Shown one piece after another: positions 14,045 to 49,406 of a stretch of 64,000 nt of DNA. Source of the stretch: Thermoguttaceae bacterium (lineage in GTDB: Bacteria; Planctomycetota; Planctomycetia; Pirellulales; Thermoguttaceae); the NCBI GenBank assembly GCA_040768665.1, contig JAXGMN010000031.1:36369-100368 (forward strand), in the 5' to 3' direction. A program made the translations under genes and the position numbers. The notes under the pieces were generated by a model, which made no database searches, was not told the DNA's origin, and worked only from the letters and a program-made list of their open reading frames with translations. Every line of letters begins with the position of its first letter. Position 1 is the first letter of the stretch.

Positions 14045-15451
14045 TCAGTTGGTCTCCGCGAATGTGCCGCCCAGACTGGCGGTGGGGTCGTCGGTCAGCG
14101 GCACGAACGGCTGCTGTTCGAGGAAGCTCACGAGCTTCTGCGACGCGCCCGGCTCTTGGAGCTTCCGCAGGGCCTTCGTTTCGATTTGCCGAACGCGTTC
14201 CCGCGTCACCGAAAAGATCTTGCCGATTTGCGAAAGCGTATAGCAGTGGCCGTCGGCTAACCCGTAGCGATGGCGAATGATCTCCCGCTCGCGGTAATCG
14301 AGCAGTTTCAGGGCATCGGCGATTCGTGACCGGAGGAGTTCCCGATTCATCTCGTCGAGCGGATCGTCCTGGCGGTGGTCACGAAGCAGATCGCCGATGC
14401 TGCACTCGTCCTGCCCGACCACCGGCTGATCGAGAGACAGCGGGGGACGATTCATCCGCAGGGCCCGGTTTGCTTTGGCCACCGAGACGTCGGCCGCTTT
14501 GGCCATGTCTTCGACCGAGGGTTCCGAGCTATTCTCCTGGACGAGCGACTGATTGATCGAGCGGACCTTGCTCATCGTCTCGATCATGTGGATGGGTACT
14601 CGGATCGTCCGGCTCTGGTCGGCAATCGCCCGGGTAATCGCCTGGCGGATCCACCAGGTGGCGTAGGTGGCGAACTTGTAGCCGCGAGAACACTCGAACT
14701 TGTCGACCGCTCGCATCAGCCCGGTGTTCCCTTCCTGGATCAGGTCGAGGAAGCTGAGTCCGCGGTTCCGGTAGCGTTTGGCAATCGAAACGACCAGACG
14801 GAGATTTCCGGCGGCGAGGAAGCGTCGGGCATCCTTGAGCCGCCGGTCGACCCTCTCCACGCGAGCCACACGCTTCCGCAACGTCGAGGGGCTTTCAAGC
14901 GTCGCTACCATCAACCGGCGAAGTTGTCGGCGGAGATCGCGGGCGGACTGGTGATTCTGGTCGCGATCGGCCAGTTGCCGGCCCAGGCGGTCCATCTCGC
15001 CCGAGATCTGCTTGAGTTCATCCAGCAGCGGCTGAATCTGCTGAGACCGCAAGCCGAACTCCTCGAGCAGAACGGCAGCCTTGGCCCTGCGGCAAGTCAG
15101 GCGCCGCCAGGCTTCGCGCCGCTTTGCTGGGGAAGTCGAGCGGCTGATGGCAACCGCGAAATCGCGGCGGTTTTCCGCGAGCAGGTGCCGAATGGTGCGG
15201 AGGTTTGGCTCCATCAAGGCAACCATCCGCTGTTTTTGGGGGACATCGGTCATCGAAACGTCCAAGGCCCGCTCGATTCGCTCTTCGCCATCGGCAATAC
15301 TTTCAAGCAACCGAACGGCTGCGGCAAGCGCGTAGTCCGTGGCGAGCACGCCCTCCCGGTAGCGCTTGCGAAGAAGCTCAATCCGCGTGGCTGCGGCGAT
15401 TTCCTCGCGACGCGTCAACAAGGGCGTATCGCTCATCTGTTCCAGATACAT
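14045..15451 (-). CDS. RNA polymerase sigma-70 family factor (RpoD-like, group 1/2)
   Basis: Region 1.2 [21 protein letters not shown]. Region 2 [56 protein letters not shown]. Region 4.2 [27 protein letters not shown]. The ORF track extends to 15607. The start is placed at the Met of MYLEQ. An upstream GTG is possible. Confidence 0.8.
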
Positions 15452-15840
15452 GCGAACCGCGCCGACTTCAAGATTTTCCACGCGTGGCTCCTCAATTCCG
15501 ATATGCGTGACGTGTTTCGCTGCGCACGGCGAACCTGGGCATAAGCGCGCCTGGGAAACCGAGGCCGACCGGCGACACCGCGACCGCGCACCACCGTGCG
15601 TGACCACCTTGCGGCAAAGGCCGGCACCGGAAAATTAGATGAGTTGACTCGGACTGCCGTAGCCGGTGCCGCCCAGGACAGTGCCGCAGATGCCTCTCTC
15701 TACTGCAAATACGCAGGGCTTCCGGAAAGGGTTGCACGAAAACGACGTTATTTGCCGCTTTTCTCCGTCGTATTTTCGGGTGGGTATATGCCGGTCAAGG
15801 TGCACATTTGCGCGGAGAAGATTCTGGCTGACCTGTCAAT

Positions 15841-17577
15841 TTGGTGAATATTTTCCGGTTCTGTCAGGTTTTCCGAAAAAATGAGATGCGACAACCAAAA
15901 AAGACTTTAAGGGCGGCTAGCTTGGGGGCCGATAATGAGCCGCAGACCATGATTGGTCGTTTCAGAGCCATGCGGGGGGGCACCCGTTTCCTGGCGAGTC
16001 GAAATTCCATGGCGCTAGCAAAACAGATTTGCAACGCGGGTCGGCAACGGTCGGTCAGATTCCATGTCGCAGTAGGGGTTCTGTTCATTCTGGCCGGCGC
16101 CGGTTTGGGACCTGCGGGAGCCGATGCCCAGCAGGCGGCCTCGCGGACCCCTCCGTGGCAACGTACGCCCACCACCCAATCAGTTCGCATAGTCGGGGCG
16201 GAGACGGCCACGGTGCCCACTGCGGTACCTGCAACCTCCACGCCACGCGCCGCGGCGCCTTCGACGACGAGCAGAAGCTTCACTCGCGCGCGGCAGGCGT
16301 CACAGATCACCTACTCAGACGCAGACGCTGTCGTCGAGGCCGCTCCGGGCGAGGTCTACTACGAAGGCGACCCTTCGATCGCCAACTCCATTACGATGCC
16401 AGGGCCCGTGACGTCCGGCTGCACCGATTGCGGGACTCCCGGAATGGGCGTTCCCGGCATGGGAATCGGCGAAGCGTTCTGGGGCGCCGGCGACGTGTAC
16501 GACAGCGGCGCGGCTTTCGTCCCATGGTGGGGGTTCGCCCCCGGGCGACTCTGGGTGCGTGGCGAGTCGCTGCTTTGGTGGACGGAAGGCACTCGCTTGC
16601 CGCCGCTGGTGACGACCAGCCCTCAAGGAACGGACCAAGAAGATGCGGGAGTCCTGCCGGATGCAACGATCCTTTTCGGCGACCAGGAAGTCAACGACGG
16701 CAGCCGTTCGGGCGGGCGGATCAGTTTCGGGCTGCGGCCGAATGAGTGCAGCCCTTGGGGAATCGAGACGAGCTACATGCGGCTCGGCTCGGAGTCGACG
16801 TCCTTCTTCGCAGAAGGCCAAAACGGCAGACCGATCCTGGCCCGGCCTTATTTCGACATCGAGGCGAATGAAGCCGCCGCGGCTCTCATCTCGTTCCAGG
16901 GCGAAGAAAACAGCTTCCAAGGGGAGGTTTCAGCCCTGGCGGCCGTCACTTTCCAGGGACTCGAACTGCTCATGCGGCGCCGGGTCTCCGACTGGTGCAC
17001 GGGAAGCTTCGACTTCATAGCAGGCTGGCGTTACTGGCGGTTGGACGACGATCTGATCATTGGCCAGGATGTCGACCGTCTGACCACTCCACAGGCAAAC
17101 ATCCAAGTGACCGACCGCTTCCTCACCGAGAACCGATTCAACGGTGGTGAAATCGGCTTCGTCACCGAGACGCAGTGGTGCCGATGGTCGTTCGGCGCAC
17201 TGCTCAAAGTTGGCATCGGCACCACCGATTCCCGTGTGACCATCGCCGGAACCACGGTCGTCGACGACGTTACGGACAACTACGGGTTGCTCGCCTTGCC
17301 GTCGAACATCGGCGTGTACAGTGATGACGAGTTTGCCATGGTTCCGGAGTTCGGCCTCACGGTGGGCTACGATTTGACGTGCAGACTGCGGGCGACGTTC
17401 GGCTATACGCTCATCTACTGGGGCGGGGTTGCCCGCGCGGCGGACCAGGTCAGCCTGGATCTGAACATTCCGAACGACAACGACCGGCAGGTCGGGCTTG
17501 CCCGTCCGGAGTTCCCGTTTGCAAGAACCGACTTCTGGGCCCAGGGTCTCAATTTCGGCCTGGAGTACCGCTTCTAA
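15841..17577 (+). CDS. Outer-membrane beta-barrel protein, candidate member of the planctomycete BBP7-type family (family-level guess from general features)
   Basis: The signal peptide MALAKQICNAGRQRSVRFHVAVGVLFILAGAGLGPAGADA sits internally, so the true start is probably 15886 or 16009. Ser/Thr/Pro-rich linker. The C-terminal half has alternating aromatic/hydrophobic residues and ends in ...GLNFGLEYRF with a terminal Phe, typical of OM barrels. Confidence 0.5.
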   Translation: MVNIFRFCQVFRKNEMRQPKKTLRAASLGADNEPQTMIGRFRAMRGGTRFLASRNSMALAKQICNAGRQRSVRFHVAVGVLFILAGAGLGPAGADAQQAASRTPPWQRTPTTQSVRIVGAETATVPTAVPATSTPRAAAPSTTSRSFTRARQASQITYSDADAVVEAAPGEVYYEGDPSIANSITMPGPVTSGCTDCGTPGMGVPGMGIGEAFWGAGDVYDSGAAFVPWWGFAPGRLWVRGESLLWWTEGTRLPPLVTTSPQGTDQEDAGVLPDATILFGDQEVNDGSRSGGRISFGLRPNECSPWGIETSYMRLGSESTSFFAEGQNGRPILARPYFDIEANEAAAALISFQGEENSFQGEVSALAAVTFQGLELLMRRRVSDWCTGSFDFIAGWRYWRLDDDLIIGQDVDRLTTPQANIQVTDRFLTENRFNGGEIGFVTETQWCRWSFGALLKVGIGTTDSRVTIAGTTVVDDVTDNYGLLALPSNIGVYSDDEFAMVPEFGLTVGYDLTCRLRATFGYTLIYWGGVARAADQVSLDLNIPNDNDRQVGLARPEFPFARTDFWAQGLNFGLEYRF

Positions 17578-17663: not shown

Positions 17664-17706
17664 CAGCAGCCCGGCTGCTCCAAAGCAGCCGGGCTGCTGT
17701 TTGATA
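17664..17706 (+). terminator. Intrinsic terminator of the OM-barrel gene
   Basis: Perfect 15-bp stem CAGCAGCCCGGCTGC-tccaaa-GCAGCCGGGCTGCTG followed by TTTGAT. Confidence 0.5.
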
Positions 17707-17747: not shown

Positions 17748-20700
17748 TTATTGGTTCCAGTCGCCGATTAGTTCGAGGACGTAGTCGATCGTCTGCCGCT
17801 CCACGGTGTCGTCGCCGCCGGCTTCGGAGATCGCCTGCATACGTTCGAAAGCGATCAGCTCGGCAAGGTAGTTGACGCCCGAGACGGTCGCCTTGTTGCC
17901 CGTGGCCGTGAGGTCGTCGTCACCGGTCGAATCGTAGACGATGGCGTTGTCGTCGCCGCCTTTGCCGTCGGCCTTCATCTCCTCGGCCCCGAAGACCTCG
18001 ACCATGTAACCGGCCCCGCGGAGCACGCCGTAACCGGGCCTGATCCGCGCCTCGTCGGCGCCGGCCTTGCCGTTGAGAGTCACCTTGTCGTTGCCGCCGA
18101 GGGCGTCGAGCATGAAGACGTCGACCTCGTCGGCGGAATAGGTCGTTGTCTTGCCGTTGACGACCACCGTGTGTGAATTCGCTCCCGCAGTGAACTGGAT
18201 GTCGTCGTTGCTCGAAGTCCCGGTAATCTTGACCTTCTTGATCCCGGTGAAGCTCGAGAAAACCTCCTCGCAGCCAGGCGTCGAGTTGAGGAAAAGGCGG
18301 ATGCCGACATACTGCGGATTGATGCCGGCCTCTGCGAAATTGTTGTCGGTAATGTGCGAGCCCGATTCCAGGACGATATTGGTAATTGAATTCCCGTTGG
18401 CGGTTCCACCCCCGCTGCCGGCCTCGGCCTTGCCGTCGCGGAACTTTGCGGGCTGGGTCTCGACGACTTCGTACGTGCCGGCCGGGATATCCTTGAACAG
18501 GTAGAAACCATCGGGGCCGGTCTTGACCGTTGCCACGTCGGACCATGTGGCGGTGTCGCCGGTGCCGGTCTTCTGCCGGAGTTTCACCGTCACGCCCGCC
18601 AGGCCCATATCGCCCTGGGTGCCGTTGCCGGGTCCGGCGTAGCCGTCCTGGCCGTCGCCCTCCATGTAAACGATTCCGGAGAGGCTGCCGCTGCCGACAA
18701 GAACCGAGATCGTCTCCTGATCGGTCTTTGCGCCGCCCGAGCCGGTGTTGCCCTTATCATTGGCCGTCACCTTGAGACTGTCGCTGCCGGCGTAGTTGGC
18801 GTTGGGCTTATATTTCAGGCCATTGGTGGCGGCCAGAGTGGCGTTGATCTTGGCCACCGTTCCCTTGAGGACCACTTTGGCGGTGCCGTTGCCGCTGACA
18901 CCGCCGGCTGCCACGCCCCCGCTCACGTTCGTCAGCACGGTCAATGTGCCGTGGCTCACCTCGAGCGTGACCTCGATTTCGCCGGTTCCCGCATCGGCAT
19001 CCGAAACGGAGATCCCGGTGATCTCTCGCTCCCCGTTCTTCGGTGCGACGACCGAGGCCGGCACGGTGAGCACGGGCGCGGCATTCACACCGGTGACGGT
19101 GATGGCAACCGTCTCCTGATCGGTCTTCGCGCCGCCGGTGCCGGTATTGCCCTTGTCGTCGGCCTTCACTTTGAGGCTATCGGCTCCGGTGTACGTGGCG
19201 GCCGACTTGTACTTCAGGCCATTGGTCGCGGCCAGCGTGGCATTAACCTGGGAAAGCGTTCCTGTGAGAACGATCTTGGCGGTGCCGTTGCCGCTGACAC
19301 CGCCGGCCGCCACGCCGCCGCTGACGTTGGTCAGCACGGTCAGCGTGCCGTGGCTCACCTCGAGCGTGACCTCGATCGCACCCGTCGCGGCATCCGGATC
19401 GGCGATGCTGATGCCGGAAATCGCCAGATCGGTGTTCTGGGCGATCGTTTTCGCGCCGGGCACGGTCACGACAGGCGCCTGGTTGGCCGTGGTTACCGTG
19501 ATCGAGAGATTTTTCGTCGCCGTCTTGGCGCCGCCCGACCCGGTATTGCCCTGATCGTTCACCGTAACTGCAAGCGTGTTGGGCGTGGTCGACTCGGTCG
19601 TGCCGCGATACTTCAGCCCGCCCGAGGCGGCCAGGGTGGCGTTGATCTTGGCCACTGTGCCGGTCAACGTTACGGTCCCGGTTCCATTGCCCTGGATATC
19701 CGCCGTGGCAAGACCGCCCGAAACGTCGGTCCGGAGCGTGAGACTGCCATGGCCAATGGCAAGCGTGACGACGACGTTGGCGGTGCCGGCATCGACGTCG
19801 GCGATGCTCACGCCGGAGACTGCCAGGTCGGTGTTGGGCGCGACGGCGAGTGCCGAGGGAACCGTGACCTGCGGAGCGTCGTTGACCGCGCTGAGCGTAA
19901 TGGAGACGGTCCCGCTGCCGCTCTGCGCCCCGCCGGTACCGGTATTGCCCAGATCGTTGGCCATCACGCTTAGCGTGGCGGTCGTGGTGTTGTTGGTCAG
20001 CCCCTTGTACTTTACTCCCTGGGCGTTGGCCAGTGTGGCGTTGATCTTCGCCCGGCTGCCGGTCAGCGTTACCGATGAGGTGCCATTGCCGGAGATATTC
20101 GAACCGGTAAGACCGCCAGAAACGTCGTTCTTGACGGTCAGGGTGCCGTGTGTCACGGTCAGCGTGACACGGATATCCGAAGAACCGGCATCGGCGTCGG
20201 CGATGCTGATGCCGGTGATGTACTTGTCGGTGTCTTCCGTGGCGCTCTGGGTTCCGGGAACGGTCACCACCGGGGCCTGGTTGGCGCCGGCCACGGTAAT
20301 TGGCAGATCCTTGATGGTCGTTTTCGCGACGCCGGAGCCGGAGTTGCCTTGGTCGTTGGCCGTGATGGTGAGCGTTTCGGGGCCGGTATAGCCGGTCGTG
20401 CCGCGGTACTTGAGCCCGGCCGAGGCATCCAGCGTGTTCTTGATCTTGGCCAACGAGCTCGTCACGGTCACCGTGCCCGTGCCGTTGCCGACCACGTCAG
20501 CCGCCACCAGGCCACCCGTCACGTCGGTCTTGAAGGTCAGCGTGCCGTGGTCGACCTCGAACTTGACCTCGACCGTCGCGCTGCCGGCGTCGGCGTCGGT
20601 GATGCTGATCCCGGAGAGCACAAGTTCCGCCCCCGACGGCACCGCCTGTTCGCCGGGGATCGTGATCACCGGGGCGTCGTTGACCGCCGTGACGGTAATC

Positions 20701-22625
20701 GCGATCTGCTCGGCATCGCTCTTGGCGCCGCCGGGACCGGTGTTGCCCTGGTCGTTTGCCGTGACAGCCAGGGAGTCGGCGCCGACATAATCGGCCTGTC
20801 CCCGGTAGACCAGCCCCTGGGACGCAGCCAGCGTGTTATTGATCTGGGCCAGCGAACCGGTGAGAACGACCGACCCGGTGCCGTTGCCCTGGATCTTTGC
20901 GGCGGTCAGTCCGCCGGAGACGTTGTCCTTCACCGTCAGCGTACCGTGGGCGACCGCCAGCGTGACGCGGATTTCGGCCGAAGCGGCGTCGGGATCGTGG
21001 ATGCTGATCCCGGCGATCGCCAGGTCGGTGTCCTCCGCCACGGTTTGTGCGGTCGGAACGGTGACGACCGGAGGCTGGTTCGCGGCGACAACAGTGATCG
21101 TTACGGGTTTCTGGACGCTCTTGGCTCCGCCGGAACCGGTGTTCCCCTTGTCGTCTACAGCGATAGTGAGCGTTTCCGATCCGGTATAGTTCGTGTCGCT
21201 GACGTATTTCAGCCCTTGCGAGTCCGCCAGAGTGGCGTTGATTTGGGCGATCGTACCGGTCAGGGTGACCGTCTTCGTATGATTGCCCTGGATGTCGTCA
21301 GCGGTCAGCCCACCGGTGACGCCGGTTTTTACCGTGAGCGTCCCCTGAGCGACCTCGAGGGTTACCTCGACGTCGGCGGTGTTCGCGTCCACGTCGGCGA
21401 CGCTGATTGGGGTCACAAACAGATCCGCGCCGGTGCCGACGGAGAGGCTGGTGGGAGCCGCGATGCTCGGAGAATCGTTCACGGCCGCCACGGTGATGGC
21501 AACCTGCTTGGTTTGGCTTTTCGCGCCGCCCGCGCCGGTGTTCCCTTGGTCATTGGCCGTGACCGTCAGGCTGACATTGCCGTTGAAATCGGCGTTGGGT
21601 ACCGTGTAGGCGACGTTGGCGTCCAGGGTCGCGTTGATTTGCGACACGGTTCCGGTAAGCGTTACGATGCGCGACCCGTTGCCGCTGACCGCAGCACCGC
21701 CGCTGACCGTTTGCACGGCAAGCGTGCCGGAATTGGTGGGAATCGCCAGCGTGACCACGATCTGGCTCGTCCCCGCGTCCGGGTCCTCCACGCTGATGCC
21801 GCTGACCGTCGCCGTGGCATTGGCCGCCTCGTTCACGTTCGGACCCGTGACCGGCACGGTGACCTGCGGCGCGTCGTTGGCGTCAGTCAGCGTGATCGTC
21901 AGCGACGCGCTGTCGTCGGGCGTCTGGCCGATGGCCGGATCGTCGATGGAGACGGTCACGTCGAGTTGCGGATTCGTCTCGAAGTCGAGCGGGGCGCCCG
22001 CTTTCAGGTACAGGGCAACAGAACCATCGAGTTCGAACAGGTCGGCGTCGGCGCCGCTGAGCGACAGCGAATTGTTTCCCTCGCCGTCGTCGACGATCGC
22101 GAGGTCGGCCACTTTGCGCCGGACCGACATATCGGTATCTTCCGATAGCGTGGTTGTGGTGTTCACCAGGTCGATGGTCGGCGGAGCATTCGTCGCGGAG
22201 TCGTTGTCGGTGATCGCCACCGTGACGTCGTCGATCTCGATGCCGTCGTAGCTGGCGTCCTCGCTGGTCGCGGTGTGCGCGATGATGCCGTTGTGGTCGC
22301 CTTCCACGTCGGTGTCATCGATTGCCGAAACCGTCACCTCCTGCACCTGGTCCCAATTGTCCGGAGTGAACGTCAGCGATTCCGGAGAAACGTCCAACTG
22401 GCCATCCGGTGTGAGCGTGATCACCACGTTGGCGGCCGGCTCGGCGTCGAGCACAACCTCATACGCGGCAGTGACGCCGCTCTCGCTGACTTCGACACCC
22501 CCTGTCGGCTCAGTGATTACCACAGCCAGCAGGGTCCGCTGTTCGAGCGGTTCACATCGCAGGTGGCGGTTCAGAGAACGGCTGACGTTGCAGTTGCGGC
22601 GGAGAAGGCGGGACAACGACTTCAT
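17748..22625 (-). CDS. Giant secreted/surface repeat protein: basic N-terminal leader, about 10-11 tandem ~98-aa cadherin-like/Ig-like repeats (each ending VNDAP or ANQAP), SdrD-B-like domain and a conserved Gly/Asp-rich C-terminal module
   Basis: 1625 aa. Leader MKSLSRLLRRNCNVSRSLNRHLRCEPLEQRTLLAVV. Tandem repeats of the pattern NDAP-VT-P...GISI.D.DAG....V.V.LAV.HGTLT...GNGT..V.LTG.....INATLA...GL.Y.....G.D.L.V.ANDQGNTG.GGAK. C-terminal SGIVYMEGDGQDGY...AGTYEVVETQP (SdrD-B-like). Then GGNDKVTLNG, GKGGDDNAIVYDSTGDDDLT and AGGDDTVE, which are beta-roll-like. Ends WNQ. Confidence 0.8.
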   Translation of the reverse strand: MKSLSRLLRRNCNVSRSLNRHLRCEPLEQRTLLAVVITEPTGGVEVSESGVTAAYEVVLDAEPAANVVITLTPDGQLDVSPESLTFTPDNWDQVQEVTVSAIDDTDVEGDHNGIIAHTATSEDASYDGIEIDDVTVAITDNDSATNAPPTIDLVNTTTTLSEDTDMSVRRKVADLAIVDDGEGNNSLSLSGADADLFELDGSVALYLKAGAPLDFETNPQLDVTVSIDDPAIGQTPDDSASLTITLTDANDAPQVTVPVTGPNVNEAANATATVSGISVEDPDAGTSQIVVTLAIPTNSGTLAVQTVSGGAAVSGNGSRIVTLTGTVSQINATLDANVAYTVPNADFNGNVSLTVTANDQGNTGAGGAKSQTKQVAITVAAVNDSPSIAAPTSLSVGTGADLFVTPISVADVDANTADVEVTLEVAQGTLTVKTGVTGGLTADDIQGNHTKTVTLTGTIAQINATLADSQGLKYVSDTNYTGSETLTIAVDDKGNTGSGGAKSVQKPVTITVVAANQPPVVTVPTAQTVAEDTDLAIAGISIHDPDAASAEIRVTLAVAHGTLTVKDNVSGGLTAAKIQGNGTGSVVLTGSLAQINNTLAASQGLVYRGQADYVGADSLAVTANDQGNTGPGGAKSDAEQIAITVTAVNDAPVITIPGEQAVPSGAELVLSGISITDADAGSATVEVKFEVDHGTLTFKTDVTGGLVAADVVGNGTGTVTVTSSLAKIKNTLDASAGLKYRGTTGYTGPETLTITANDQGNSGSGVAKTTIKDLPITVAGANQAPVVTVPGTQSATEDTDKYITGISIADADAGSSDIRVTLTVTHGTLTVKNDVSGGLTGSNISGNGTSSVTLTGSRAKINATLANAQGVKYKGLTNNTTTATLSVMANDLGNTGTGGAQSGSGTVSITLSAVNDAPQVTVPSALAVAPNTDLAVSGVSIADVDAGTANVVVTLAIGHGSLTLRTDVSGGLATADIQGNGTGTVTLTGTVAKINATLAASGGLKYRGTTESTTPNTLAVTVNDQGNTGSGGAKTATKNLSITVTTANQAPVVTVPGAKTIAQNTDLAISGISIADPDAATGAIEVTLEVSHGTLTVLTNVSGGVAAGGVSGNGTAKIVLTGTLSQVNATLAATNGLKYKSAATYTGADSLKVKADDKGNTGTGGAKTDQETVAITVTGVNAAPVLTVPASVVAPKNGEREITGISVSDADAGTGEIEVTLEVSHGTLTVLTNVSGGVAAGGVSGNGTAKVVLKGTVAKINATLAATNGLKYKPNANYAGSDSLKVTANDKGNTGSGGAKTDQETISVLVGSGSLSGIVYMEGDGQDGYAGPGNGTQGDMGLAGVTVKLRQKTGTGDTATWSDVATVKTGPDGFYLFKDIPAGTYEVVETQPAKFRDGKAEAGSGGGTANGNSITNIVLESGSHITDNNFAEAGINPQYVGIRLFLNSTPGCEEVFSSFTGIKKVKITGTSSNDDIQFTAGANSHTVVVNGKTTTYSADEVDVFMLDALGGNDKVTLNGKAGADEARIRPGYGVLRGAGYMVEVFGAEEMKADGKGGDDNAIVYDSTGDDDLTATGNKATVSGVNYLAELIAFERMQAISEAGGDDTVERQTIDYVLELIGDWNQ

Positions 22626-22878
22626 GGGAGCTTATCCTCGGGTGACACTTGATGGAGCAGGCTGCACCACTTGTGAGACCACCCCTAATGGGGCAGTCTG
22701 AACGAGCGATCCAGCAGCTCGGTACTCTGTTCCAGGGAGTGGTGAGCCTGAGCGGGTCGAACGGACAATGGGAGAAGTTAGCTCGGCGGTGGTGGTGCGA
22801 GGACAACGACCTGTGTGAAGTGCCTCTTCAGTGGTCTGATCGCCTACTCGCCCGCCCGTGAGCGTGTGCTAAGACTTC

Positions 22879-22907
22879 ATGCTAATCTCGATTTAGAAGC
22901 GCAACAA
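22879..22907 (-). promoter_or_regulatory. Sigma70-like promoter of the cadherin-repeat giant gene (conserved with the paralog promoter)
   Basis: Minus-strand sense TTGTTG-N17-TAGCAT. The same architecture and ~55 nt of flanking sequence are conserved upstream of the second giant gene. Confidence 0.45.
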
Positions 22908-23004
22908 CCTGCGAAAGTTCCCGATTTTGGTGCTGTTTGCCGTCGAGAAGCCGGCTGTAGGGATTATTCGCCGCGGAGCGCGGGCGAGAGTCTGCTGGAG
23001 ACTT

Positions 23005-23023
23005 CCCGGCAAGCGGGACCTGC
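23005..23023. repeat. Half copy of the intergenic palindromic repeat family (GGCAAGCGGGACCT arm)
   Basis: CCCGGCAAGCGGGACCTGC matches an arm of the repeat at 41587-41609. Confidence 0.35.
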
Positions 23024-23068
23024 GAGCCGGCAGGGAAACGAGTCGGAAAAGCCCGCCTCGAACCTGGC

Positions 23069-26000
23069 CTACGGTTGATCCCAGCCGCCTTCGAGCATCA
23101 GCACGAAGTCGATCGCGTCTTGCTCTGCGGTGTCGTTCCCTCCCAACTCGGATACGGCCCGGACCCGCTCGAAGGCAATCAATTCGGCAAGGTAATCGCC
23201 ATAGTCGATCGTCGCCTTGTTATCGCCGGCGGCCAGATCGTCGCTGCCCGCGGAGTCGAAAATGACGGCAGTGTCGTTGGTGCCCCCTTTGCCGTCGATC
23301 TTGAGGGTCTCCGCATTGAGAGCCTCCACCATGTAGTTCGAGCCCTTGAGGCTGCCCCATGCTCGCATGGACTCCGCCTGGTCAACTCCCGCGGCACCGT
23401 TCAGTGTAACGCTGTCCTCACCGCCTCCGGCATCGATCGTGAAGACGTCTACCTCGCTGGCGGTATAGGTCGTCGCCTTGCCGTTGACGGTGACCGTGTG
23501 GGAATTCGTCCCGGCAGTGAAAACGATCGTGTCGGCCCCCGAGGTTCCCTCGATGAACACCTCCTTGACGCCGAGATGATCGCGGATGATGGTCCGCGAG
23601 GAGGGTGTGGAGTTGAGGAACAGGCGGATCGAGATCGACTCAGGCTCGATGTTGGTTTCCGCGAAGAGGTAGTCTTCGCCGTGTTCGCCGGCAGCCAATT
23701 CGATGTCGGTGATCTTGTTGTTCTCGGCCGTCCCGCCCGCTGTGCCGACAGTCTCCTTGCCGTCGGCGAAGTCGTTCGGCTGCGTTTCGAGAACCTGATA
23801 GGTTCCGGCCGGCAGGTTATCGAATAGGAAAACCCCGTCCGGCCCCGTGGTAACGGGTGCAACGCCAGCGACGTCTTCGTAAGTTCCGTCCTGCGAGTTT
23901 TTCTTCTGGAGCTTGACTGTGACGCCCGGCAATCCCATCTCGGTCGGCAAACCGTCGGCATCGAGATCGCGGACGCCATCGTTGTCGGTGTCGAGCCAGA
24001 CATAACCGGAAAGACTGCCGTTGCCATCGTCGTCGGCGATATTCACCGTGGCGCTCTGCTGAGTGCCTACGGTGTAACCCGTGCCGGATTGCAGCGTGAG
24101 CACCGCCGTCTCGGACGCCTCGATTGCAGAGTCGTTGAGCACGTCGAGCGTCACATCAACCGAGGATTGGCCGGCGGGGATGGTTACGGTGGTTCCCGTC
24201 ACGTCCGTCGTTCCGACCTTGAGCACGTAGTCACTTCCCGTGCCGCGCGTGGCGGTTCCGCTGACGGCAAACGTGACGTTTAACGCACTGGTCGTTGAAC
24301 CGGTTCGCGTAATACGGAAGGTCCCATCGTTCGACGGTTCCGCCGCGGCGGCATCGGTCGCGGTGACGGTCACGACCGCGGCTTCGTCGTCGGCGATGTT
24401 CACCGTGGCGCTCTGCTGGGTGCCTACGGTGTAGCCGGTGCCCGACTGAAGGGTCAACACGGCCGTTTCCGATGTTTCGGCCGCCGTATCATCGAGCACG
24501 TCGAGCGTCACGTCGACGAAGGATTGGCCGGCGGGGATCGTCACGGTGGTTCCGTCACGTCCGCCGTTCCGACCTTGAGCACGTAGTCGTTTCCGTGCCA
24601 GCGTGGCAGTTCCGCTGGCGGCGAACGTGACGTTTAACGCACTGGTCGTTGAACCGGTTCGCATAATACGGAAGGTCATCGTTCGACGGTTCCGCCGCGG
24701 CGGCATCGGTCGCGGCCAATCGTGACGACCGGTGTATCGTCGTCGACGATATTCACCGTGGCGGCTCTGCTGAGTGCCTACGGTGTAACCCATCGCCAGT
24801 TGCAGGGCGAGCACCGCCGTCTCGGACGCCTCGATTGCAAAGTCGTCGAGCACTTCCAGGGTCACATCGACGAAGGATTGGCCGGCGGGGATTGTCACGG
24901 TCGTTCCCGTCACGTCGGTGGTACCAACCTTGAGCACGTAGTCGTCGCCCGTGCCGAGCGTGGCGGTTCCGCCGGCGGTGAACGTGACGGTCAGCGCCGC
25001 TTCCGTCGAGCCCGTCCGCGAAATCCGGTAAGTGCCGTTGTTCGACGGCTCTGCCGCGGTTGCGTCGGTGGCCGTGATCGTGACGACCGCCGCATCATTG
25101 TCATTGTCGTCCTCGATCTGGACGGTCGCACTGTCTTCGTCGCCTACCGTGTAACCGGTGCCCGATTGCAGGGTGAGCACGGCCGTTTCGGAATCCTCGA
25201 CCGCCACGTCGTCGATCACCTCCAGGACGACGTCGACCGACGCCTGCCCCGCCGGGATCGCGACGGAGGTCCCGGTCAACACCGTGCCGCCGACGCGGAG
25301 GAAATAGTCGTCTCCCGTGCCGCGAGTGGCGGTGCCGCCGACGCCGAAATTGACCGTGAGCGATCCCTGGGTGGAACCGACGCGGGTGATGCGGTAGGTG
25401 CCGTCGTCTGCCGGTTCCGCTGCGTTGGGATCGACTGCCGCAATGGTCACCACCGGCGGGTCGTCGTCGGCGATGGTCACCGTGGCACTGCCCGCGGTGC
25501 CGACGGTGTACTGCCCCGCCTGAAGCGACAGGATAGCCGTCTCCTGGCTCTCCGCCACGTCGTCGTCAGCCACTTCGAGCGTCACGTCGATGAATGTCTC
25601 GCCGGCGGGAATTATTACAGTCGTATCGGTCAACTCCGTGTCGCCCACTTTGAGAACGTAATCGTTTTCCGTTCCCTGCTCGGCGGTTCCGCCGACGGCG
25701 AAGGTTACTGTCAGCGGCGACTCCGTGGAACCGGTTCGCGCGATGCGATATACGCCGCCGTTGGACGGTTCCGCCGCGTCCGGATCGGTCGCCGAGATGG
25801 TCACAAGGTCGTTATCGGCGATGTTCACGGTGGCTGTGTCCAGCGAGCCCACCGTGTAGCCGGTCGCCGCCTGCAGGGTCAGCACGGCGGTCTCAGGAGG
25901 TTCCTGCAACGAGTCGTCGACCACCTCCAGCGTGACATTCAGGGAGTCCTCCCCGGCGGCCAGGTTGAGCGTTGTACCGGTAACCTCCGTGCCATCGACT

Positions 26001-26614
26001 TTGAGTACGTAGTCATCTTCCTCGCCTCGCTCGGCGGTTCCGCCGATGACAAATTCCACGCTCAGCGCCGCTTCCGTGGAACCGGCCCGCCGAATCTGGT
26101 ATGTCCCATGATTGGATGGTTCCCCGGCACTGGAATCCGCTGCAATGACGGTCAGCACAGGCGGATCATTGTCGGCAATGTTGATGGTGGCGCTGTCGGA
26201 TGTGCCGATCGTATAGCCGGTGCCCTCTTCGAGCGTCATCACGGCGGTCTCGGTAAACTCTGCCGTGGCGTTATCAACGGCCTCGAGGGCAACGTCCACG
26301 GAAGCCTGGCCCGCCGGGATGGTAATGGTCGATCCACTTACCTCCGTGCCCCCCACCTTGAGCAGGTAGTCGGTGCCGCGACTGGCCGATCCGCCGATGC
26401 TGAATTCGACGTCCAACGCGGCCTCCAAGTCGTCGGTTCGCGTAATCTGGAACGTCCCGTTGTCGCTCGGTTCGGCAGCTTCGCCGTCGGTCGCTGTGAT
26501 CGAAACGACTACGGCCAAGAGCGAGCGTTCTTCCAAAGGTTCGCATAGAAGACGTCGGCAGCGAAGGGGATGGCTGACGCGGTTGCGGCGGTGCAGACGA
26601 GAACCTGTTTTCAT
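23069..26614 (-). CDS. Giant secreted/surface protein: same N-terminal leader, ~9 Calx-beta repeats, SdrD-B-like domain and the same conserved C-terminal module. One internal repeat is frame-garbled.
   Basis: The start is placed at the Met of MKTGSRLHRRNRVSHPLRCRRLLCEPLEERSLLAVV (GGAAGG Shine-Dalgarno 7 nt upstream). The ORF track extends to 26689. Calx-beta units have the pattern ATD..AAEPSN.GT.RI.RTGST..L.V.F.VGGTA..G..DY.L..G.T..T...V.IPAG...VDV.L.V.DD...E..ETAVL.LQ.G.GYTVG...ATV.I.DD. The C-terminal ~330 aa align along their length with the C-terminus of the 17748..22625 protein. Region ~24540-24790 reads as a repeat with several indels. Confidence 0.75.
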   Translation of the reverse strand: MKTGSRLHRRNRVSHPLRCRRLLCEPLEERSLLAVVVSITATDGEAAEPSDNGTFQITRTDDLEAALDVEFSIGGSASRGTDYLLKVGGTEVSGSTITIPAGQASVDVALEAVDNATAEFTETAVMTLEEGTGYTIGTSDSATINIADNDPPVLTVIAADSSAGEPSNHGTYQIRRAGSTEAALSVEFVIGGTAERGEEDDYVLKVDGTEVTGTTLNLAAGEDSLNVTLEVVDDSLQEPPETAVLTLQAATGYTVGSLDTATVNIADNDLVTISATDPDAAEPSNGGVYRIARTGSTESPLTVTFAVGGTAEQGTENDYVLKVGDTELTDTTVIIPAGETFIDVTLEVADDDVAESQETAILSLQAGQYTVGTAGSATVTIADDDPPVVTIAAVDPNAAEPADDGTYRITRVGSTQGSLTVNFGVGGTATRGTGDDYFLRVGGTVLTGTSVAIPAGQASVDVVLEVIDDVAVEDSETAVLTLQSGTGYTVGDEDSATVQIEDDNDNDAAVVTITATDATAAEPSNNGTYRISRTGSTEAALTVTFTAGGTATLGTGDDYVLKVGTTDVTGTTVTIPAGQSFVDVTLEVLDDFAIEASETAVLALQLAMGYTVGTQQSRHGEYRRRRYTGRHDWPRPMPPRRNRRTMTFRIMRTGSTTSALNVTFAASGTATLARKRLRAQGRNGGRDGTTVTIPAGQSFVDVTLDVLDDTAAETSETAVLTLQSGTGYTVGTQQSATVNIADDEAAVVTVTATDAAAAEPSNDGTFRITRTGSTTSALNVTFAVSGTATRGTGSDYVLKVGTTDVTGTTVTIPAGQSSVDVTLDVLNDSAIEASETAVLTLQSGTGYTVGTQQSATVNIADDDGNGSLSGYVWLDTDNDGVRDLDADGLPTEMGLPGVTVKLQKKNSQDGTYEDVAGVAPVTTGPDGVFLFDNLPAGTYQVLETQPNDFADGKETVGTAGGTAENNKITDIELAAGEHGEDYLFAETNIEPESISIRLFLNSTPSSRTIIRDHLGVKEVFIEGTSGADTIVFTAGTNSHTVTVNGKATTYTASEVDVFTIDAGGGEDSVTLNGAAGVDQAESMRAWGSLKGSNYMVEALNAETLKIDGKGGTNDTAVIFDSAGSDDLAAGDNKATIDYGDYLAELIAFERVRAVSELGGNDTAEQDAIDFVLMLEGGWDQP

Positions 26615-26706
26615 GGCAGTTTGCCTTCCTGCGCGCGATTTCCGAGGAACTGGTTCAGAAGTGGGCACAAATGACCAATCGCCGGCCAACGCCGGGTCAA
26701 GATTTC

Positions 26707-26735
26707 ATGCTAGTCTCGGTCAATCGGCGCAGCAA
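26707..26735 (-). promoter_or_regulatory. Sigma70-like promoter of the Calx-beta giant gene
   Basis: Minus-strand sense TTGCTG-N17-TAGCAT, inside a ~55-nt block conserved with 22870-22925. Confidence 0.45.
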
Positions 26736-26807
26736 GCTGCGCAAAGTCCACTTATGGAGCAAAAGAAGGCCGCCGCCATGCCTATAGCGATTGTGGCGGC
26801 TGTGCCA

Positions 26808-31319: not shown

Positions 31320-32681
31320 ATGGGTATCCGTTTGGAGGTCATTCAGTATTTCGATGAGGCGAACCGATCGCTGGTGCAGAGGATCCCGGCGGACGGGTCG
31401 GCCGACATCAAACTCGGGGCTCAATTGATCGTGCAGGAGAACCAAGAGGCGATCTTTTTTCGCGATGGGAAAGCGCTCGACCGGTTCAGCCCGGGGCGCT
31501 ACACGCTCACGACGGCGAACCTGCCGCTCATCACGCGACTGTTGACGATTCCGTGGGAGAAGTCGCCGTTCCAGTGTCTGGTCTACTTCATCGGCAAGCA
31601 GACCTTTCTCGATCAGAAATGGGGCACGCGCCAGCCGATCACGTTCCGCGACGCCGACTTCGGCATGGTGCGGCTACGGAGCTTCGGCAAGTTCTCGTTC
31701 CGCGTCGCCGACGCGGCGGTGTTGGTCAATACCCTGGTCGGCACGCAGGGAAAGTACTCGACGGACCAGGCCACCGCGTTCCTCAAGGACCTGATCGTCG
31801 CGCGGATGACCGATCTGCTGGGCACGCTGGGTCTGAGCCTGCTCGATCTGCCTTCGCGTTACGACGAGATCGCCTCCGGCACGCGGGCCAAGGTGAGCGA
31901 GGAGTTCGGCAAGTACGGGCTGGAGCTGGTCGATTTTTTCATCAACGCCATCACGCCGCCGGAAGAGGTGCAGAAGGCGATCGACGCACGGAGCTCGATG
32001 GGAGCCGTCGGCGATCTGAACGCGTTCATGAAGTTCCAGGCGGCCAACAGCATGTCGAAGCTGGCCGAGCAGGGATCAGGTGGCGGAGGAGCGATGGGGA
32101 TGGGAATGGGTGCCGGGTTCGGGATGATGATGCCGGGCATGATTCAGCAGGCGATGGCCGGCGGCGCGGGCCCACAGCCGGCGTCGCCCTCAGCGCCGCG
32201 GCCACAGCCCGCGCCGACTCCTGCCGCCGCAAGCGGAGCCGCCGGCCTCAACTTCGATGACTTGGCTCCGGTCACTTCGGACCCCAAGGCGATGGTCCGC
32301 TCCGTGGCCCGGGCTGCCGGCTACTCGGTGTCCGAGTCGGGCGAAAGCTGGGAGATAACGGTTCCCGTCGGCGCGACCCGCAAGCAGAAGGTCCACGTCG
32401 ACTACGGCCAATCGGATCGCGAGGGACACGCGATGGTCAGCTTCTGGTCGGTCTGCGGTCCGGCGGCCGAGAACAACGCGATGGCGCTGTTGCGTTACAA
32501 CGCCTCGATGCTGCACGGCGCGTTTGCCGTCAAGATGCTGGACGGGGGCCCGGCCGCAGTGCTTCAGGCCAATCACCTGGCCGAAGCACTCGATCCGCTG
32601 GAAATCAGCCGGACGCTCTCCGCGATCGCCTGGCAGGCCGACACGGTCGAGGAAAAGCTCGTTGGCAGCGACGAGTATTGA
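31320..32681 (+). CDS. SPFH/Band-7-like domain protein (COG4260-like, no TM) with a Gly/Met-rich linker and a C-terminal YbjN-like domain
   Basis: 453 aa. N-terminal beta-rich region then a coiled helical region typical of SPFH proteins lacking a membrane anchor. Low-complexity [21 protein letters not shown] followed by [20 protein letters not shown]. The last ~130 aa (PKAMVRS...WEITVPVG...HVDYGQ...[13 protein letters not shown]...[17 protein letters not shown]) resemble the YbjN putative-sensory-transduction-regulator fold. These are motif-level assignments. Confidence 0.5.
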
Positions 32682-32691
32682 GGAGGCGCGG

Positions 32692-45660: not shown

Positions 45661-47507
<1,847 letters not shown>

Positions 47508-48566: not shown

Positions 48567-49406
48567 TCACATCCCAACAAAGAGAGGGCAATCTGCATTC
48601 CGGATAATATGCAGCATTGTAGTTTCACGAAGAATCTTCGCAAGCCAACTGTCCGCACTGGAGCCTAACACCACCATGTCCGCGTCCCATTCGGCAGCCT
48701 CAGCCAGGATTTCCTCTTTCGGATCTCCCGGCCGATACCGGGTCTCCGGCTCGTAACCGTGAGCCCGGCAGTAAACGACCGCATCGGTCAACATCGGTTT
48801 CGCCTGATCCTCCGGATGGCCGCAAACGAGAATCCGCAGCATCGCGCTTGGCCAAAGTCGAAAACGCATAAACTGCTGCATCGATTCGGCAGATTGCACG
48901 GAACCGCTGTAGGCCACCAGCACGCGGCGAACTGGGCGGACCCGATTGGAGACCGCGATCAGGGGTCGCACGCCTCCCTCAATCAACTCCCGAAGGAACC
49001 TTGCCGGTTCCACGTCGGAGTCACCGAGGATCTTGTACTCAAACATGCTTCTCAGTCCGAATACGGCCAAGTCGTGGTAGCGAGCATATTCGATCATCAG
49101 GTGGAACGGGCTCCCTTGCTCGCGATAGATCGTGATGGGCACGCCCTGATCACTGCAGTGCTGCTTCAGCACGTCAAGCGAGTCTTCAATTTGTTCCCGA
49201 GTGACCTCGAGACGATCTTCGCACAAATCCGCCATCGCGACGGCGCTCTCCAACGGAACGCGCCCAACGCGACAGATGCGGCTCTCATCAAGCACGGTCA
49301 CGGCCGTCAGGCTCGCACCGCTCCGTCGTGCGATCTCGACGGCGAACTGAATGGCGACACCGGAGAACGGCGTGCCGCCAATTCCCAGCAGAATTCGACG
49401 GATCAT
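48567..49406 (-). CDS. Tandem universal stress protein (UspA x2)
   Basis: 279 aa. ILLGIGGTPFS...LAVFGLRS and RVLVAYSGSVQS...MVVLGSSADSWLAKILRETTMLHIIRNADCPLFV. Confidence 0.75.
   Translation of the reverse strand: MIRRILLGIGGTPFSGVAIQFAVEIARRSGASLTAVTVLDESRICRVGRVPLESAVAMADLCEDRLEVTREQIEDSLDVLKQHCSDQGVPITIYREQGSPFHLMIEYARYHDLAVFGLRSMFEYKILGDSDVEPARFLRELIEGGVRPLIAVSNRVRPVRRVLVAYSGSVQSAESMQQFMRFRLWPSAMLRILVCGHPEDQAKPMLTDAVVYCRAHGYEPETRYRPGDPKEEILAEAAEWDADMVVLGSSADSWLAKILRETTMLHIIRNADCPLFVGM

What the first reader, a model, noticed from the sequence alone, without database searches (positions are those of the whole stretch)
22860..22930. Conserved promoter block (TTGYTG-N17-TAGCAT) upstream of both giant genes (second copy at 26698-26750)
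On the sense (minus) strand, ~55 nt are conserved between the two upstream regions. The first reads GGAACTTTCGCAGGTTGTTGCGC...GAGATTAGCATGAAGTCT. The second reads GGACTTTGCGCAGCTTGCTGCGC...GAGACTAGCATGAAATCT. The blocks share identical -10 (TAGCAT), near-identical -35 (TTGTTG vs TTGCTG) and 17-nt spacing. They lie at different distances from the start codons (~250 nt vs ~85 nt). Their coding bodies are unrelated, so shared cis-regulation implies co-regulation of the pair. An additional conserved upstream half (ACTTTGCGCAG) could be an activator site.
Basis: seen in the sequence. Interest (0 to 1): 0.55.

Follow-up and report, generated by a model that had tools for sequence, protein, structure and literature searches.

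The report
Conserved promoter-like block before paralogous adhesin genes
A roughly 70-base stretch is kept upstream of two neighbouring, related surface-protein genes of a planctomycete and of their counterparts in two other organisms; it most likely holds the promoter of each gene, which is ordinary biology and not a new kind of element.

Summary
Two copies of a ~70-nt block lie on the minus strand at 22862-22933 and 26690-26760. They are 42/57 identical in the core, and no shuffle reaches that alignment score. There are no other copies in the window.

The two downstream genes are not unrelated. They are tandem paralogues that share an N-terminal export signal (62% identity) and a 319-aa C-terminal region (54%). 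Only the central repeat bodies differ.

The block is also present upstream of a gene-2 orthologue in a Rhodopirellula sp. MAG (L002) and of a gene-1 orthologue in a biogas-fermenter contig (L129, protein only 51-54% identical). In each pair of upstream regions it is the best-conserved stretch, and in W2 versus L002 it is more conserved than the coding DNA. So it is under selection.

The bases that do not vary fit a sigma-70-type promoter: TT(G/C)yyG, 16-17 nt, TAGyAT. There is a conserved GGA(A)yTTT element upstream. No transcription start site is mapped.

Two rival readings survive. One is an ECF-type GGAACTT-N17-TCTrA promoter, seen only in the gene-1-type copies. The other is a 3-codon mini-ORF, ATG-AAR/GAG-TCN-stop, kept in all four copies.

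Verdict: a new member of a known kind, of modest interest.

The parts
22862..22933 (-). Block copy 1 (W1), upstream of gene 1
   Evidence: nhmmer with the 4-sequence HMM gives 67.8 bits, E 5e-19. The sequence is shown. It is the best local alignment to W2, L002 and L129, with 0 shuffles reaching the score.
22914..22922 (-). GGGAACTTT upstream element. It could be an activator or UP-like site, or an ECF-type -35.
   Evidence: It is 9/9 identical in L129. The gene-2-type copies carry TGGACTTT and TGGAATTT. GGAACTT is the RpoE -35 box (PMC8103513).
22902..22907 (-). -35-like hexamer TTGTTG
   Evidence: It aligns with TTGCTG, TTGCCG and TTCCTG in the other copies.
22879..22884 (-). -10-like hexamer TAGCAT, 17 nt after the -35-like hexamer
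   Evidence: TAG.AT is invariant in all four copies.
22869..22880 (-). 3-codon mini-ORF ATG AAG TCT TAG, overlapping the -10-like hexamer
   Evidence: Read directly. The same frame is kept in W2, L002 and L129.
22626..22878 (-). Inferred 5' untranslated leader of gene 1 (about 245-250 nt if the start site follows TAGCAT)
   Evidence: Distance. The fold is not better than shuffles (z = -1.5). There is no Rfam match.
17748..22625 (-). Gene 1: 1625-aa secreted adhesin-like protein. It has a planctomycete N-terminal signal, 133-aa cadherin-like repeats, an SdrD_B domain and a shared C-terminal module.
   Evidence: The orthologue P0152 is 51-54% identical.
26690..26760 (-). Block copy 2 (W2), upstream of gene 2
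   Evidence: nhmmer gives 59.9 bits, E 1.4e-16. The sequence is shown. It is 84% identical to L002, against 75% for the coding DNA and 57% for the leader.
26743..26750 (-). TGGACTTT upstream element (degenerate form of GGAACTTT)
26730..26735 (-). -35-like hexamer TTGCTG. It sits inside the 7+2+7 palindrome GCGCAGCTTGCTGCGC, which the other copies do not keep.
26707..26712 (-). -10-like hexamer TAGCAT, 17 nt after the -35-like hexamer
26697..26708 (-). 3-codon mini-ORF ATG AAA TCT TGA
   Evidence: Read directly.
26615..26706 (-). Inferred 5' leader of gene 2. It starts with the small hairpin CCGGC-GTTG-GCCGG, which L002 keeps as CCGGC-CTCT-GCCGG.
   Evidence: The fold is not better than shuffles (z = 0.22).
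23069..26614 (-). Gene 2: 1181-aa paralogue with Calx-beta repeats and the same N-terminal signal, SdrD_B domain and C-terminal module as gene 1
   Evidence: The L002 orthologue is 73% identical over the first 160 aa.

Best explanation
Each block is the transcription-initiation region of the gene downstream of it.

Proposed anatomy:
- A sigma-70-family (housekeeping-type, high-G+C style) core promoter: -35 TT(G/C)yyG, a 16-17-nt spacer, and -10 TAGyAT.
- On the upstream side, a conserved GCwCCAAnAAT...GGA(A)yTTT-sGyAG segment. This is a likely contact for a regulator or for the RNA polymerase alpha subunit.
- On the downstream side, a conserved discriminator and start region, GrArTCkT.

Proposed history and function:
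- The block was duplicated together with the 5' end of an ancestral surface-adhesin gene.
- Purifying selection has kept it in both paralogue lineages while the rest of the intergenic DNA diverged beyond alignment.
- Gene 1 and gene 2 are each transcribed from their own copy, with 5' leaders of about 90-250 nt, and probably respond to the same factor.

Shown: the existence, position, orientation and conservation of the block.
Inferred: promoter activity, the start site, the sigma factor, and co-regulation.
For: 1. The block is statistically real and occurs only upstream of the two paralogues in 64 kb. These are the only two proteins in the window with the E-x-L-E-x-R-x-L-L signal.

2. It is kept upstream of a gene-2 orthologue (L002 = L040 = L124, Rhodopirellula sp. 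MAG) and of a gene-1 orthologue (L129). The L129 protein is only 51-54% identical, and nothing else in that spacer aligns.

3. All six pairwise comparisons of upstream regions peak at the block. Five have 0/500 shuffles reaching the score; W2-L129 has 4/500.

4. In W2 versus L002, identity is 84% in the block and 90% in the 21-nt core. It is 75% in coding DNA, 57% in the leader, and 64% then 45% further upstream.

5. What lies upstream differs between loci: a divergent BNR/sortilin-like gene, a co-directional paralogue, or a BBP7 porin gene. What lies downstream and the orientation are constant.

6. The columns that vary least include the TT of the -35 and the T, A, G, A and T of TAGyAT. The spacer is 17, 17, 17 and 16 nt. 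The 3' half of the -35 and the spacer vary most.

7. The core is among the most A+T-rich 16-mers of the upstream region in W1, W2 and L002.

8. TTGnnn-N16-18-TAnnnT is 5.5-fold denser in intergenic than in coding DNA of the window. Correctly oriented TTGTGA-17-TAGAAT and TTGTCC-18-TAGAAT lie 45-67 nt upstream of two other genes.

9. In L129, two terminator-like hairpins with T-runs lie between the upstream paralogue's stop codon and the block. That fits termination followed by re-initiation.

10. There is no Rfam family. The leaders do not fold better than shuffles.
Against: - No transcription start site or expression data exist.
- The match to the E. coli consensus is weak: 3/6 plus 4/6. The consensus scan calls no promoter in any of the loci.
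- In L129 the -35 G is lost (TTCCTG).
- Conservation is strongest not only in the -10 but also in the 8-10 nt after it, and in CGAGAy before it. That is more than a core promoter needs.
- The same bases encode a 3-codon ORF that is preserved in all four copies.
- W1 and L129 also match an RpoE-like GGAACTT-N17-TCTrA.
- Only four independent copies from three organisms were found. No planctomycete promoter map was found in the literature library for comparison.
Confidence: 0.55

Rival explanations
1. ECF-sigma promoter followed by a conserved leader. GGAACTT would be the -35 and TCTAA/TCTGA, 17 nt later, the -10 of an RpoE-like extracytoplasmic-function sigma factor. Transcription would then start near CGAGA, and the conserved TAGyATGrAGTCkT core would be the first bases of the mRNA. 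That core would be a leader element or the 3-codon ORF M-K/E-S-stop.
For: - W1 and L129 both read GGGAACTTT (9/9 identical), followed 17 nt later by TCTAA and TCTGA.
- GGAACTT is the RpoE -35 box, and AAC is the ECF hallmark (PMC8103513).
- Planctomycetes carry many ECF sigma factors (same paper).
- The ATG, two sense codons and an in-frame stop are kept in all four copies. The changes are AAG/AAA and TCT/TCG (synonymous), AAG/GAG, and TAG/TGA.
- Terminator-like hairpins with T-runs lie 30-40 nt after the block in L002 and L129.
Against: - The gene-2-type copies have GGACTT and GGAATT, with no AAC. Their spacing to any TCnnA-like element is 19 nt.
- The putative ECF -10 is the least conserved stretch of the block: W2 and L002 differ at 4 of 7 positions there, although they are 84% identical overall.
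- The ECF -10 hallmark CGT is absent.
- No ECF sigma gene appears among the roughly 36 window proteins scanned.
- The motif was noticed after several promoter types had been tried, so its chance probability is understated.
- The stop-to-stop change can be explained by a single 1-nt insertion (TAG to TGAG).
- There is no clear Shine-Dalgarno sequence.
- The leader hairpin is not conserved in W1 or W2, and the terminator-like counts are near shuffle expectation in L002.
Confidence: 0.17
2. Operator only. The block would be the binding site of a dedicated transcription factor, either a repressor or an activator, while the actual core promoter lies elsewhere in the spacer.
For: - Conservation runs continuously for about 70 nt. 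That is longer than two hexamers and includes the segments CGAGAy and GrArTCkT.
- W2 contains a perfect palindrome, GCGCAGC-TT-GCTGCGC.
- The core has an AGAy-N9-rTCT symmetry.
Against: - The palindrome is not kept: TCGCAGG..GTTGCGC in W1, GCGCAGC..GCCGTGC in L002, and TAGTAGC..CCTGTGC in L129.
- No alternative conserved promoter-like segment exists in the spacers. Every pairwise alignment finds only the block.
- No regulator gene is consistently adjacent in the three genomic contexts.
Confidence: 0.12
3. No function. The block would be a leftover of the tandem duplication, or of gene conversion between the paralogues, that merely looks like a promoter.
For: - The genes are tandem paralogues with homologous 5' and 3' ends. 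Some shared upstream sequence is therefore expected just after a duplication.
- A TTGnnn-N16-18-TAnnnT match occurs about 1.5 times per kb of intergenic DNA.
Against: - The paralogues are only 54-62% identical as proteins, so neutral DNA should be unalignable. The flanks indeed are.
- The block persists in orthologues from other organisms at 51-73% protein identity, where conversion within one genome cannot act.
- It is better conserved than the coding DNA.
Confidence: 0.04
4. Structured cis-regulatory RNA in the 5' leader, such as a riboswitch-like element or a protein-binding RNA motif.
For: RNAalifold draws a hairpin GAGAy-N9-rUCUU with the AUG in its loop, followed by a short G+C hairpin.
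Against: - The covariation term is unfavourable (+0.44), and W2 breaks the y-r pair.
- No Rfam match appears even at E up to 5.
- The leaders fold no better than shuffles.
- The second hairpin is absent in the gene-1-type copies.
Confidence: 0.04

Closest known systems
Sigma-70-family housekeeping promoters of high-G+C bacteria (-35 TTGnnn, 17 +/- 1 nt, -10 TAnnnT, often TAGnnT as in actinobacteria; from my own knowledge)
   Same: Two hexamers at 16-17 nt spacing. The T, A and final T of the -10 do not vary, and TT(G) of the -35 is kept. The site is locally A+T-rich, is oriented towards the gene, and lies upstream of a leader.
   Different: - Only 7/12 matches to the E. coli consensus.
- There is no TG extension.
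- The 8-10 nt on either side of the -10 are conserved unusually strongly.
- No start site is mapped, and no planctomycete consensus is available for comparison.
RpoE/ECF-type promoters (-35 GGAACTT with an AAC core, -10 CGT or TCTGA; PMC8103513 for GGAACTT, AAC and CGT; TCTGA from my own knowledge)
   Same: W1 and L129 carry GGAACTT followed 17 nt later by TCTAA and TCTGA.
   Different: AAC and the spacing are lost in the gene-2-type copies. There is no CGT, no neighbouring ECF or anti-sigma gene, and the -10 stretch is the least conserved part of the block.
Paralogous promoter retention after tandem gene duplication (a general phenomenon)
   Same: The block, the 5' end and the 3' end of the gene were duplicated together and are retained in both copies.
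   Different: Here the central repeat bodies were exchanged between paralogues: cadherin-like, Calx-beta, and PKD-like in L129. The promoter block, the signal peptide and the C-terminal module stayed.
Leader peptides and minimal upstream ORFs that regulate downstream genes (attenuation leaders, start-stop and mini-ORFs; from my own knowledge)
   Same: A short ORF (3 codons) is conserved in all four copies at a fixed position upstream of the gene. The changes are mostly synonymous or stop-to-stop.
   Different: There is no demonstrated transcription of the ATG, no clear ribosome-binding site, and no conserved terminator/antiterminator pair. The ORF overlaps the candidate -10.

Membership tests
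Sigma-70-type core promoter | -10 hexamer with T1, A2 and T6 | tested here: met
   TAGCAT in three copies and TAGTAT in L129, invariant at T1, A2, G3, A5 and T6.
Sigma-70-type core promoter | -35 hexamer resembling TTGACA, with a 17 +/- 1 nt spacer | tested here: inconclusive
   The hexamers are TTGTTG, TTGCTG, TTGCCG and TTCCTG, with spacers of 17, 17, 17 and 16 nt. That is only 2-3 of 6 matches. The scan threshold (at least 4/6 in each hexamer, 9/12 overall) is not reached in any locus.
Sigma-70-type core promoter | Primary transcript 5' end 6-9 nt downstream of the -10 | not testable with these tools
   No RNA data are available. This needs 5' RACE or dRNA-seq.
Sigma-70-type core promoter | Located upstream of a gene and oriented towards it | tested here: met
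   All four copies meet this, at 92-253 nt from the start codon.
ECF (RpoE-like) promoter | -35 box containing AAC (GGAAC) | tested here: inconclusive
   Present in W1 and L129 (GGGAACTTT). Absent in W2 (TGGACTTT) and L002 (TGGAATTT). Feature definition from PMC8103513.
ECF (RpoE-like) promoter | -10 box CGT (or TCTGA-like) at a fixed 16-17 nt spacing | tested here: not met
   No copy has CGT. TCTAA or TCTGA at 17 nt occurs only in W1 and L129. In W2 and L002 the aligned stretch is GATTGAC and GGTCAAT at 19 nt, and it is the least conserved part of the block.
ECF (RpoE-like) promoter | Cognate ECF sigma / anti-sigma gene pair nearby or autoregulated | tested here: not met
   The only sigma factor found in the window is a full-length RpoD-like protein at 14045-15607. 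No two-domain ECF appears among about 36 proteins scanned. The genome outside the window was not available.
Sigma-54 promoter | GG-N10-GC (TGGCAC-N5-TTGCW) | tested here: not met
   Read by eye. GG-N10-GC can be read in W2, L002 and L129 but not in W1 (GG-N10-GG). The flanking bases match the consensus poorly (TGGACT, CAGC).
Known cis-regulatory RNA (Rfam) | Match to a curated covariance model | tested here: not met
   No hit at gathering score in the window. Only noise appears at E up to 5 in either upstream region.
Dispersed intergenic repeat (REP/MITE-like) | Many copies, irrespective of the neighbouring gene | tested here: not met
   There are two copies in 64 kb, both upstream of the paralogues. 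There are no terminal inverted repeats. The whole genome was not available.
Leader-peptide / upstream-ORF regulator | Conserved short ORF with start and stop codons in every homologue | tested here: met
   The four copies read ATG AAG TCT TAG, ATG AAA TCT TGA, ATG AAG TCT TGA and ATG GAG TCG TAG. The sample is small, and the stop change is explainable by one indel.
Leader-peptide / upstream-ORF regulator | The ORF is transcribed and translated, with a conserved downstream terminator/antiterminator or an occluded ribosome-binding site | tested here: inconclusive
   Terminator-like hairpins follow the block in L002 and L129 but not in W1 or W2. The leaders are not unusually structured. Transcription and translation are not testable here.

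The most novel reading that the evidence does not exclude
The conserved core would not be a -10 box. It would be the 5' end of the mRNA, carrying a selected 3-codon upstream ORF (Met-Lys/Glu-Ser-stop) and transcribed from an ECF-type GGAACTT promoter. Translation of this minimal ORF, or ribosome stalling on it, would control expression of large secreted adhesin genes in Planctomycetota. This would be a minimal leader-ORF control system in a phylum with no characterised cis-regulation.
Probability: 0.07. Interest if true: 0.6.

Novelty: new member of a known kind. Interest (0 to 1): 0.3.

Why it matters
Promoter architecture in Planctomycetota is essentially unmapped. I found no primary-transcriptome or promoter-consensus paper for the phylum in the library.

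A promoter-like block kept across paralogues and across organisms whose proteins are only about 52-73% identical gives a concrete, mutable candidate: TTGyyG-N17-TAGyAT plus an upstream GGAAyTTT element. It could be used for reporter work and for genetic tools in this group.

The block also marks a small family of tandem surface-protein genes. These keep the promoter, the export signal and the C-terminal module while swapping repeat bodies.

Beyond that, it is an ordinary regulatory region.

Tried and rejected
1. My first mismatch search used a wrong spacer length and found nothing.

Only L040 (identical to L002) was relevant.

3. The word-indexed protein searches were unproductive:
   - The C-terminal module returned one partial hit.
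   - The gene-2 N-terminus returned only short Calx-beta fragments.

4. Exact look-ups of three window proteins failed. The source genome is not in that collection.

5. The synteny route through the BBP7 porin next to the L002 block gave loci without the block or the adhesin gene (L123, L125, L126, L127). P0030, the closest BBP7 at 73% identity, could not be looked up.

6. L128 and L130, from sample ERZ747220, carry relatives of gene 1 and of the gene-2 C-terminus but no block. L128 has a different signal, of the lipoprotein type.

7. Sigma-54 reading: rejected, because W1 lacks the -12 GC.

8. Palindromic operator GCGCAGC-TT-GCTGCGC: rejected, because it is not conserved.

9. RNA structure and Rfam: nothing found.

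10. Literature searches found no planctomycete promoter or start-site map. A search for the RpoE consensus in PMC6941012 returned only primer tables.

Full report
**Observation**

On the minus strand the window reads as follows:

- Copy 1 (W1): ...CCAAAATCGGGAACTTTCGCAGGTTGTTGCGCTTCTAAATCGAGATTAGCATGAAGTCTTAGCAC...
- Copy 2 (W2): ...CCATAAGTGGACTTTGCGCAGCTTGCTGCGCCGATTGACCGAGACTAGCATGAAATCTTGACCC...

Each pair has a 17-nt spacer. The second hexamer ends 253 nt (copy 1) and 92 nt (copy 2) before the ATG of the downstream gene.

When the complete upstream regions (443 and 365 nt) are aligned locally, the best alignment is exactly this block. It scores 26, against 10.75 +/- 1.27 in 1000 dinucleotide-preserving shuffles, and none reaches it. 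The core is 42/57 identical. An HMM of the block finds no further copy in the 64-kb window.

**The genes**

- Gene 1 (17748-22625, minus strand) encodes 1625 aa with eight or so 133-aa cadherin-like repeats.
- Gene 2 (23069-26614, minus strand) encodes 1181 aa with Calx-beta repeats.

The first 39 residues are 62% identical; these carry an arginine-rich stretch followed by CEPLEE/QRxLLA, which I recognise from my own knowledge as the N-terminal export motif of planctomycetes. The last 319 residues, an SdrD_B domain plus a roughly 200-aa module, are 54% identical. Only the central repeat bodies differ. They are the only two proteins in the window with that N-terminal motif.

A BBP7 porin gene (15841-17577) places the window in Planctomycetota.

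The C-terminal module is widespread. It matches 2240 cluster representatives at E <= 0.001, often several times per protein.

**Related loci**

A scan of one genome per species with the 19-mer core found one relevant hit, L002. This is Rhodopirellula sp. MAG JAAYEH010000600.1. The other hit, in a Chloroflexota MAG, shares only the 19-mer.

In L002 the block lies 100 nt upstream of a gene-2 orthologue that is 73% identical over 160 aa. It sits directly after a BBP7 porin gene. L040 and L124 are the same sequence from other samples.

The HMMER search of cluster representatives with the C-terminal module gave P0152. Its contig, L129 (biogas fermenter, ENA ERZ925065), shows a tandem pair like the window's: a PKD-repeat paralogue with the same C-terminal module, a 387-nt spacer, then a gene-1 orthologue that is 51-54% identical to gene 1. 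The spacer contains the block in a diverged form: GGGAACTTTAGTAGCTTCCTGTGCATCTGAGTTGGTGTAGTATGGAGTCGTAG.

All six pairwise comparisons among the four upstream regions have their best local alignment at the block. Five have 0/500 shuffles reaching the score; the W2-L129 pair has 4/500.

In W2 versus L002, identity by segment is:

| Segment | Identity |
|---|---|
| Block | 84% |
| 21-nt core | 90% |
| First 480 coding nt | 75% |
| Leader | 57% |
| Next 50 nt upstream | 64% |
| 50-100 nt upstream | 45% |

Between paralogues or orthologues whose proteins are 51-62% identical, unconstrained DNA should not align, and the flanks indeed do not. The block is therefore under purifying selection. It belongs to the downstream gene, because the upstream neighbours differ in each locus.

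Two relatives from another sample (L128, L130) have no block. L128 has a different signal, of the lipoprotein type.

**Anatomy of the conservation**

Invariant or nearly invariant bases, in order along the block:

- CA in GCwCCAA
- GGA, then TTT
- AG of CGCAG/AGTAG
- TT(G) of the first hexamer
- G.GC just after it
- TAG.ATG.A.TC.T

The most variable stretch is the middle of the spacer: TTCTAAAT, ATCTGAGT, CGATTGAC and CGGTCAAT.

**Most likely mechanism**

The pattern fits a sigma-70-family promoter:

- T, A and the last T of the -10 never vary.
- TT of the -35 never varies, and its G is kept in three of four copies.
- The spacer is 17, 17, 17 and 16 nt and varies in sequence.
- The core is among the most A+T-rich 16-mers of three of the four upstream regions.

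Within the window, TTGnnn-N16-18-TAnnnT is 5.5 times denser in intergenic than in coding DNA. Properly oriented TTGTGA-17-TAGAAT and TTGTCC-18-TAGAAT lie 45-67 nt upstream of two unrelated genes. A TAGnnT-type -10 therefore looks normal for this genome, and from my own knowledge it is usual in high-G+C bacteria.

In L129, two terminator-like hairpins with T-runs lie between the upstream gene and the block. This is what one expects if the downstream gene has its own promoter.

The conserved segment upstream of the -35 (GCwCCAAnAAT-GGAAyTTT-sGyAG, roughly -60 to -36) is in the position of an activator or alpha-subunit contact.

I put this reading at about 0.55.

Its weaknesses:
- It matches the E. 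coli consensus at only 7/12, and the consensus scan calls no promoter in any locus.
- The bases immediately around the -10 are conserved more than a core promoter requires.
- No start site is known.

**Rivals**

(a) ECF-type promoter. W1 and L129 read GGAACTT-N17-TCTAA/TCTGA, close to the RpoE -35 box GGAACTT (PMC8103513). However:
- The gene-2-type copies have lost the AAC and have 19-nt spacing.
- The supposed -10 is the least conserved stretch.
- The CGT hallmark is missing.
- No ECF gene was seen nearby.

(b) A 3-codon ORF. If transcription did start upstream, the core would be leader RNA. It is striking that all four copies keep ATG, two sense codons and a stop:
- ATG AAG TCT TAG
- ATG AAA TCT TGA
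- ATG AAG TCT TGA
- ATG GAG TCG TAG

The changes are mostly synonymous or stop-to-stop. With four related sequences, and with a stop change that a single inserted G can explain, this is only suggestive. It is also incompatible with TAGyAT being the -10.

(c) An operator without promoter function is unlikely. No other conserved segment exists in the spacers, and the W2 palindrome is not kept.

(d) A structured RNA is not supported.

(e) A functionless duplication remnant is contradicted by the cross-organism conservation.

**What could not be done**

The source genome is absent from the look-up collection. The regulon question, whether other copies exist elsewhere in the genome, therefore remains open. 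The one metagenome scan was largely wasted on an unrelated conserved element.

**Verdict**

This is a real, selected, promoter-like regulatory block. Two tandem paralogous adhesin-like genes inherited it, and it is retained in their orthologues. It is a new member of a known kind. Interest is modest (0.3). The main value is as a concrete promoter candidate in a phylum whose promoters are not mapped. There is a small chance (about 0.07) that the conserved 3-codon ORF is a genuine leader control element.

Noticed in passing
window 24660-24900 (minus strand, inside gene 2): Gene 2 stays open, but its reading frame slips locally. Residues about 573-650 read as arginine-rich nonsense. The expected Calx-beta sequence (AATVNIVDDDTPVVTI, ATDAAAAEPSNDD) appears in the other two frames. 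Several small indels therefore compensate one another inside near-identical repeats. This is either an assembly or sequencing error, or a decaying repeat.
   Followed up: partly
L008, L009, L016, L032 (two copies) and about 70 other loci: These loci share an unrelated, highly conserved element of about 110 nt: ACCYGCGGGAYTTRATTTRTCAGGGTAGCACACGAGTTCCAARCAGAGATTAGCATGAATTCTTYATTYGAACAAGGGGAAAATGTC. It recurs in 43-51% G+C sediment and estuary metagenome contigs, sometimes twice per contig. It shares only the 19-mer with the block. It may be the start of a mobile-element gene (ATG AAT TCT TCA TTC GAA...).
   Followed up: no
window 17748-26614; L129 3-6317: The tandem paralogues keep the same promoter block, N-terminal signal, SdrD_B domain and roughly 200-aa C-terminal module. 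They carry different repeat bodies: cadherin-like, Calx-beta, and PKD-like in L129. This points to cassette-like exchange of the central repeats.
   Followed up: partly
window about 17665-17700: There is a perfect 11-bp inverted repeat, AGCCCGGCTGC-TTTGGA-GCAGCCGGGCT, in the 170-nt gap between the convergent BBP7 porin gene and gene 1. It is a likely bidirectional terminator (seen output).
   Followed up: no
window 14045-15607 (minus strand): A full-length RpoD-like sigma factor (regions 1.2, 2, 3 and 4; 520 aa) lies about 2 kb from the end of gene 1. I could not tell whether it is the housekeeping sigma or a group-2 paralogue.
   Followed up: no
window 49403-49834 (minus strand): A 143-aa protein has an N-terminal CsrA domain and a weak BON-domain match at its C-terminus. 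This is an unusual extension for CsrA. It sits next to a response-regulator gene and several universal stress protein genes.
   Followed up: no
window 45661-46809 (plus strand): A bacterial archaeo-eukaryotic release-factor-like protein (baeRF family 3/7) lies among universal stress protein genes and a formate/nitrite transporter gene.
   Followed up: no
window 32524-35588 (plus strand): A histidine kinase with a 4HB_MCP sensor domain sits next to an NtrC-type sigma-54 activator. The block is not a convincing sigma-54 promoter, so I infer no link.
   Followed up: partly
L002 2721-2746; L129 2444-2477: Terminator-like hairpins followed by T-rich runs lie 30-40 nt downstream of the block, inside the presumed 5' leaders of the orthologues. 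They are absent from the two window copies. They may be leader attenuators or chance.
   Followed up: partly
L127 11480-17506: Another planctomycete contig has a 2008-aa SdrD_B-containing protein convergent with a BBP7 porin gene. This is the same gene-pair geometry as gene 1 and BBP7 in the window, but without the block.
   Followed up: partly
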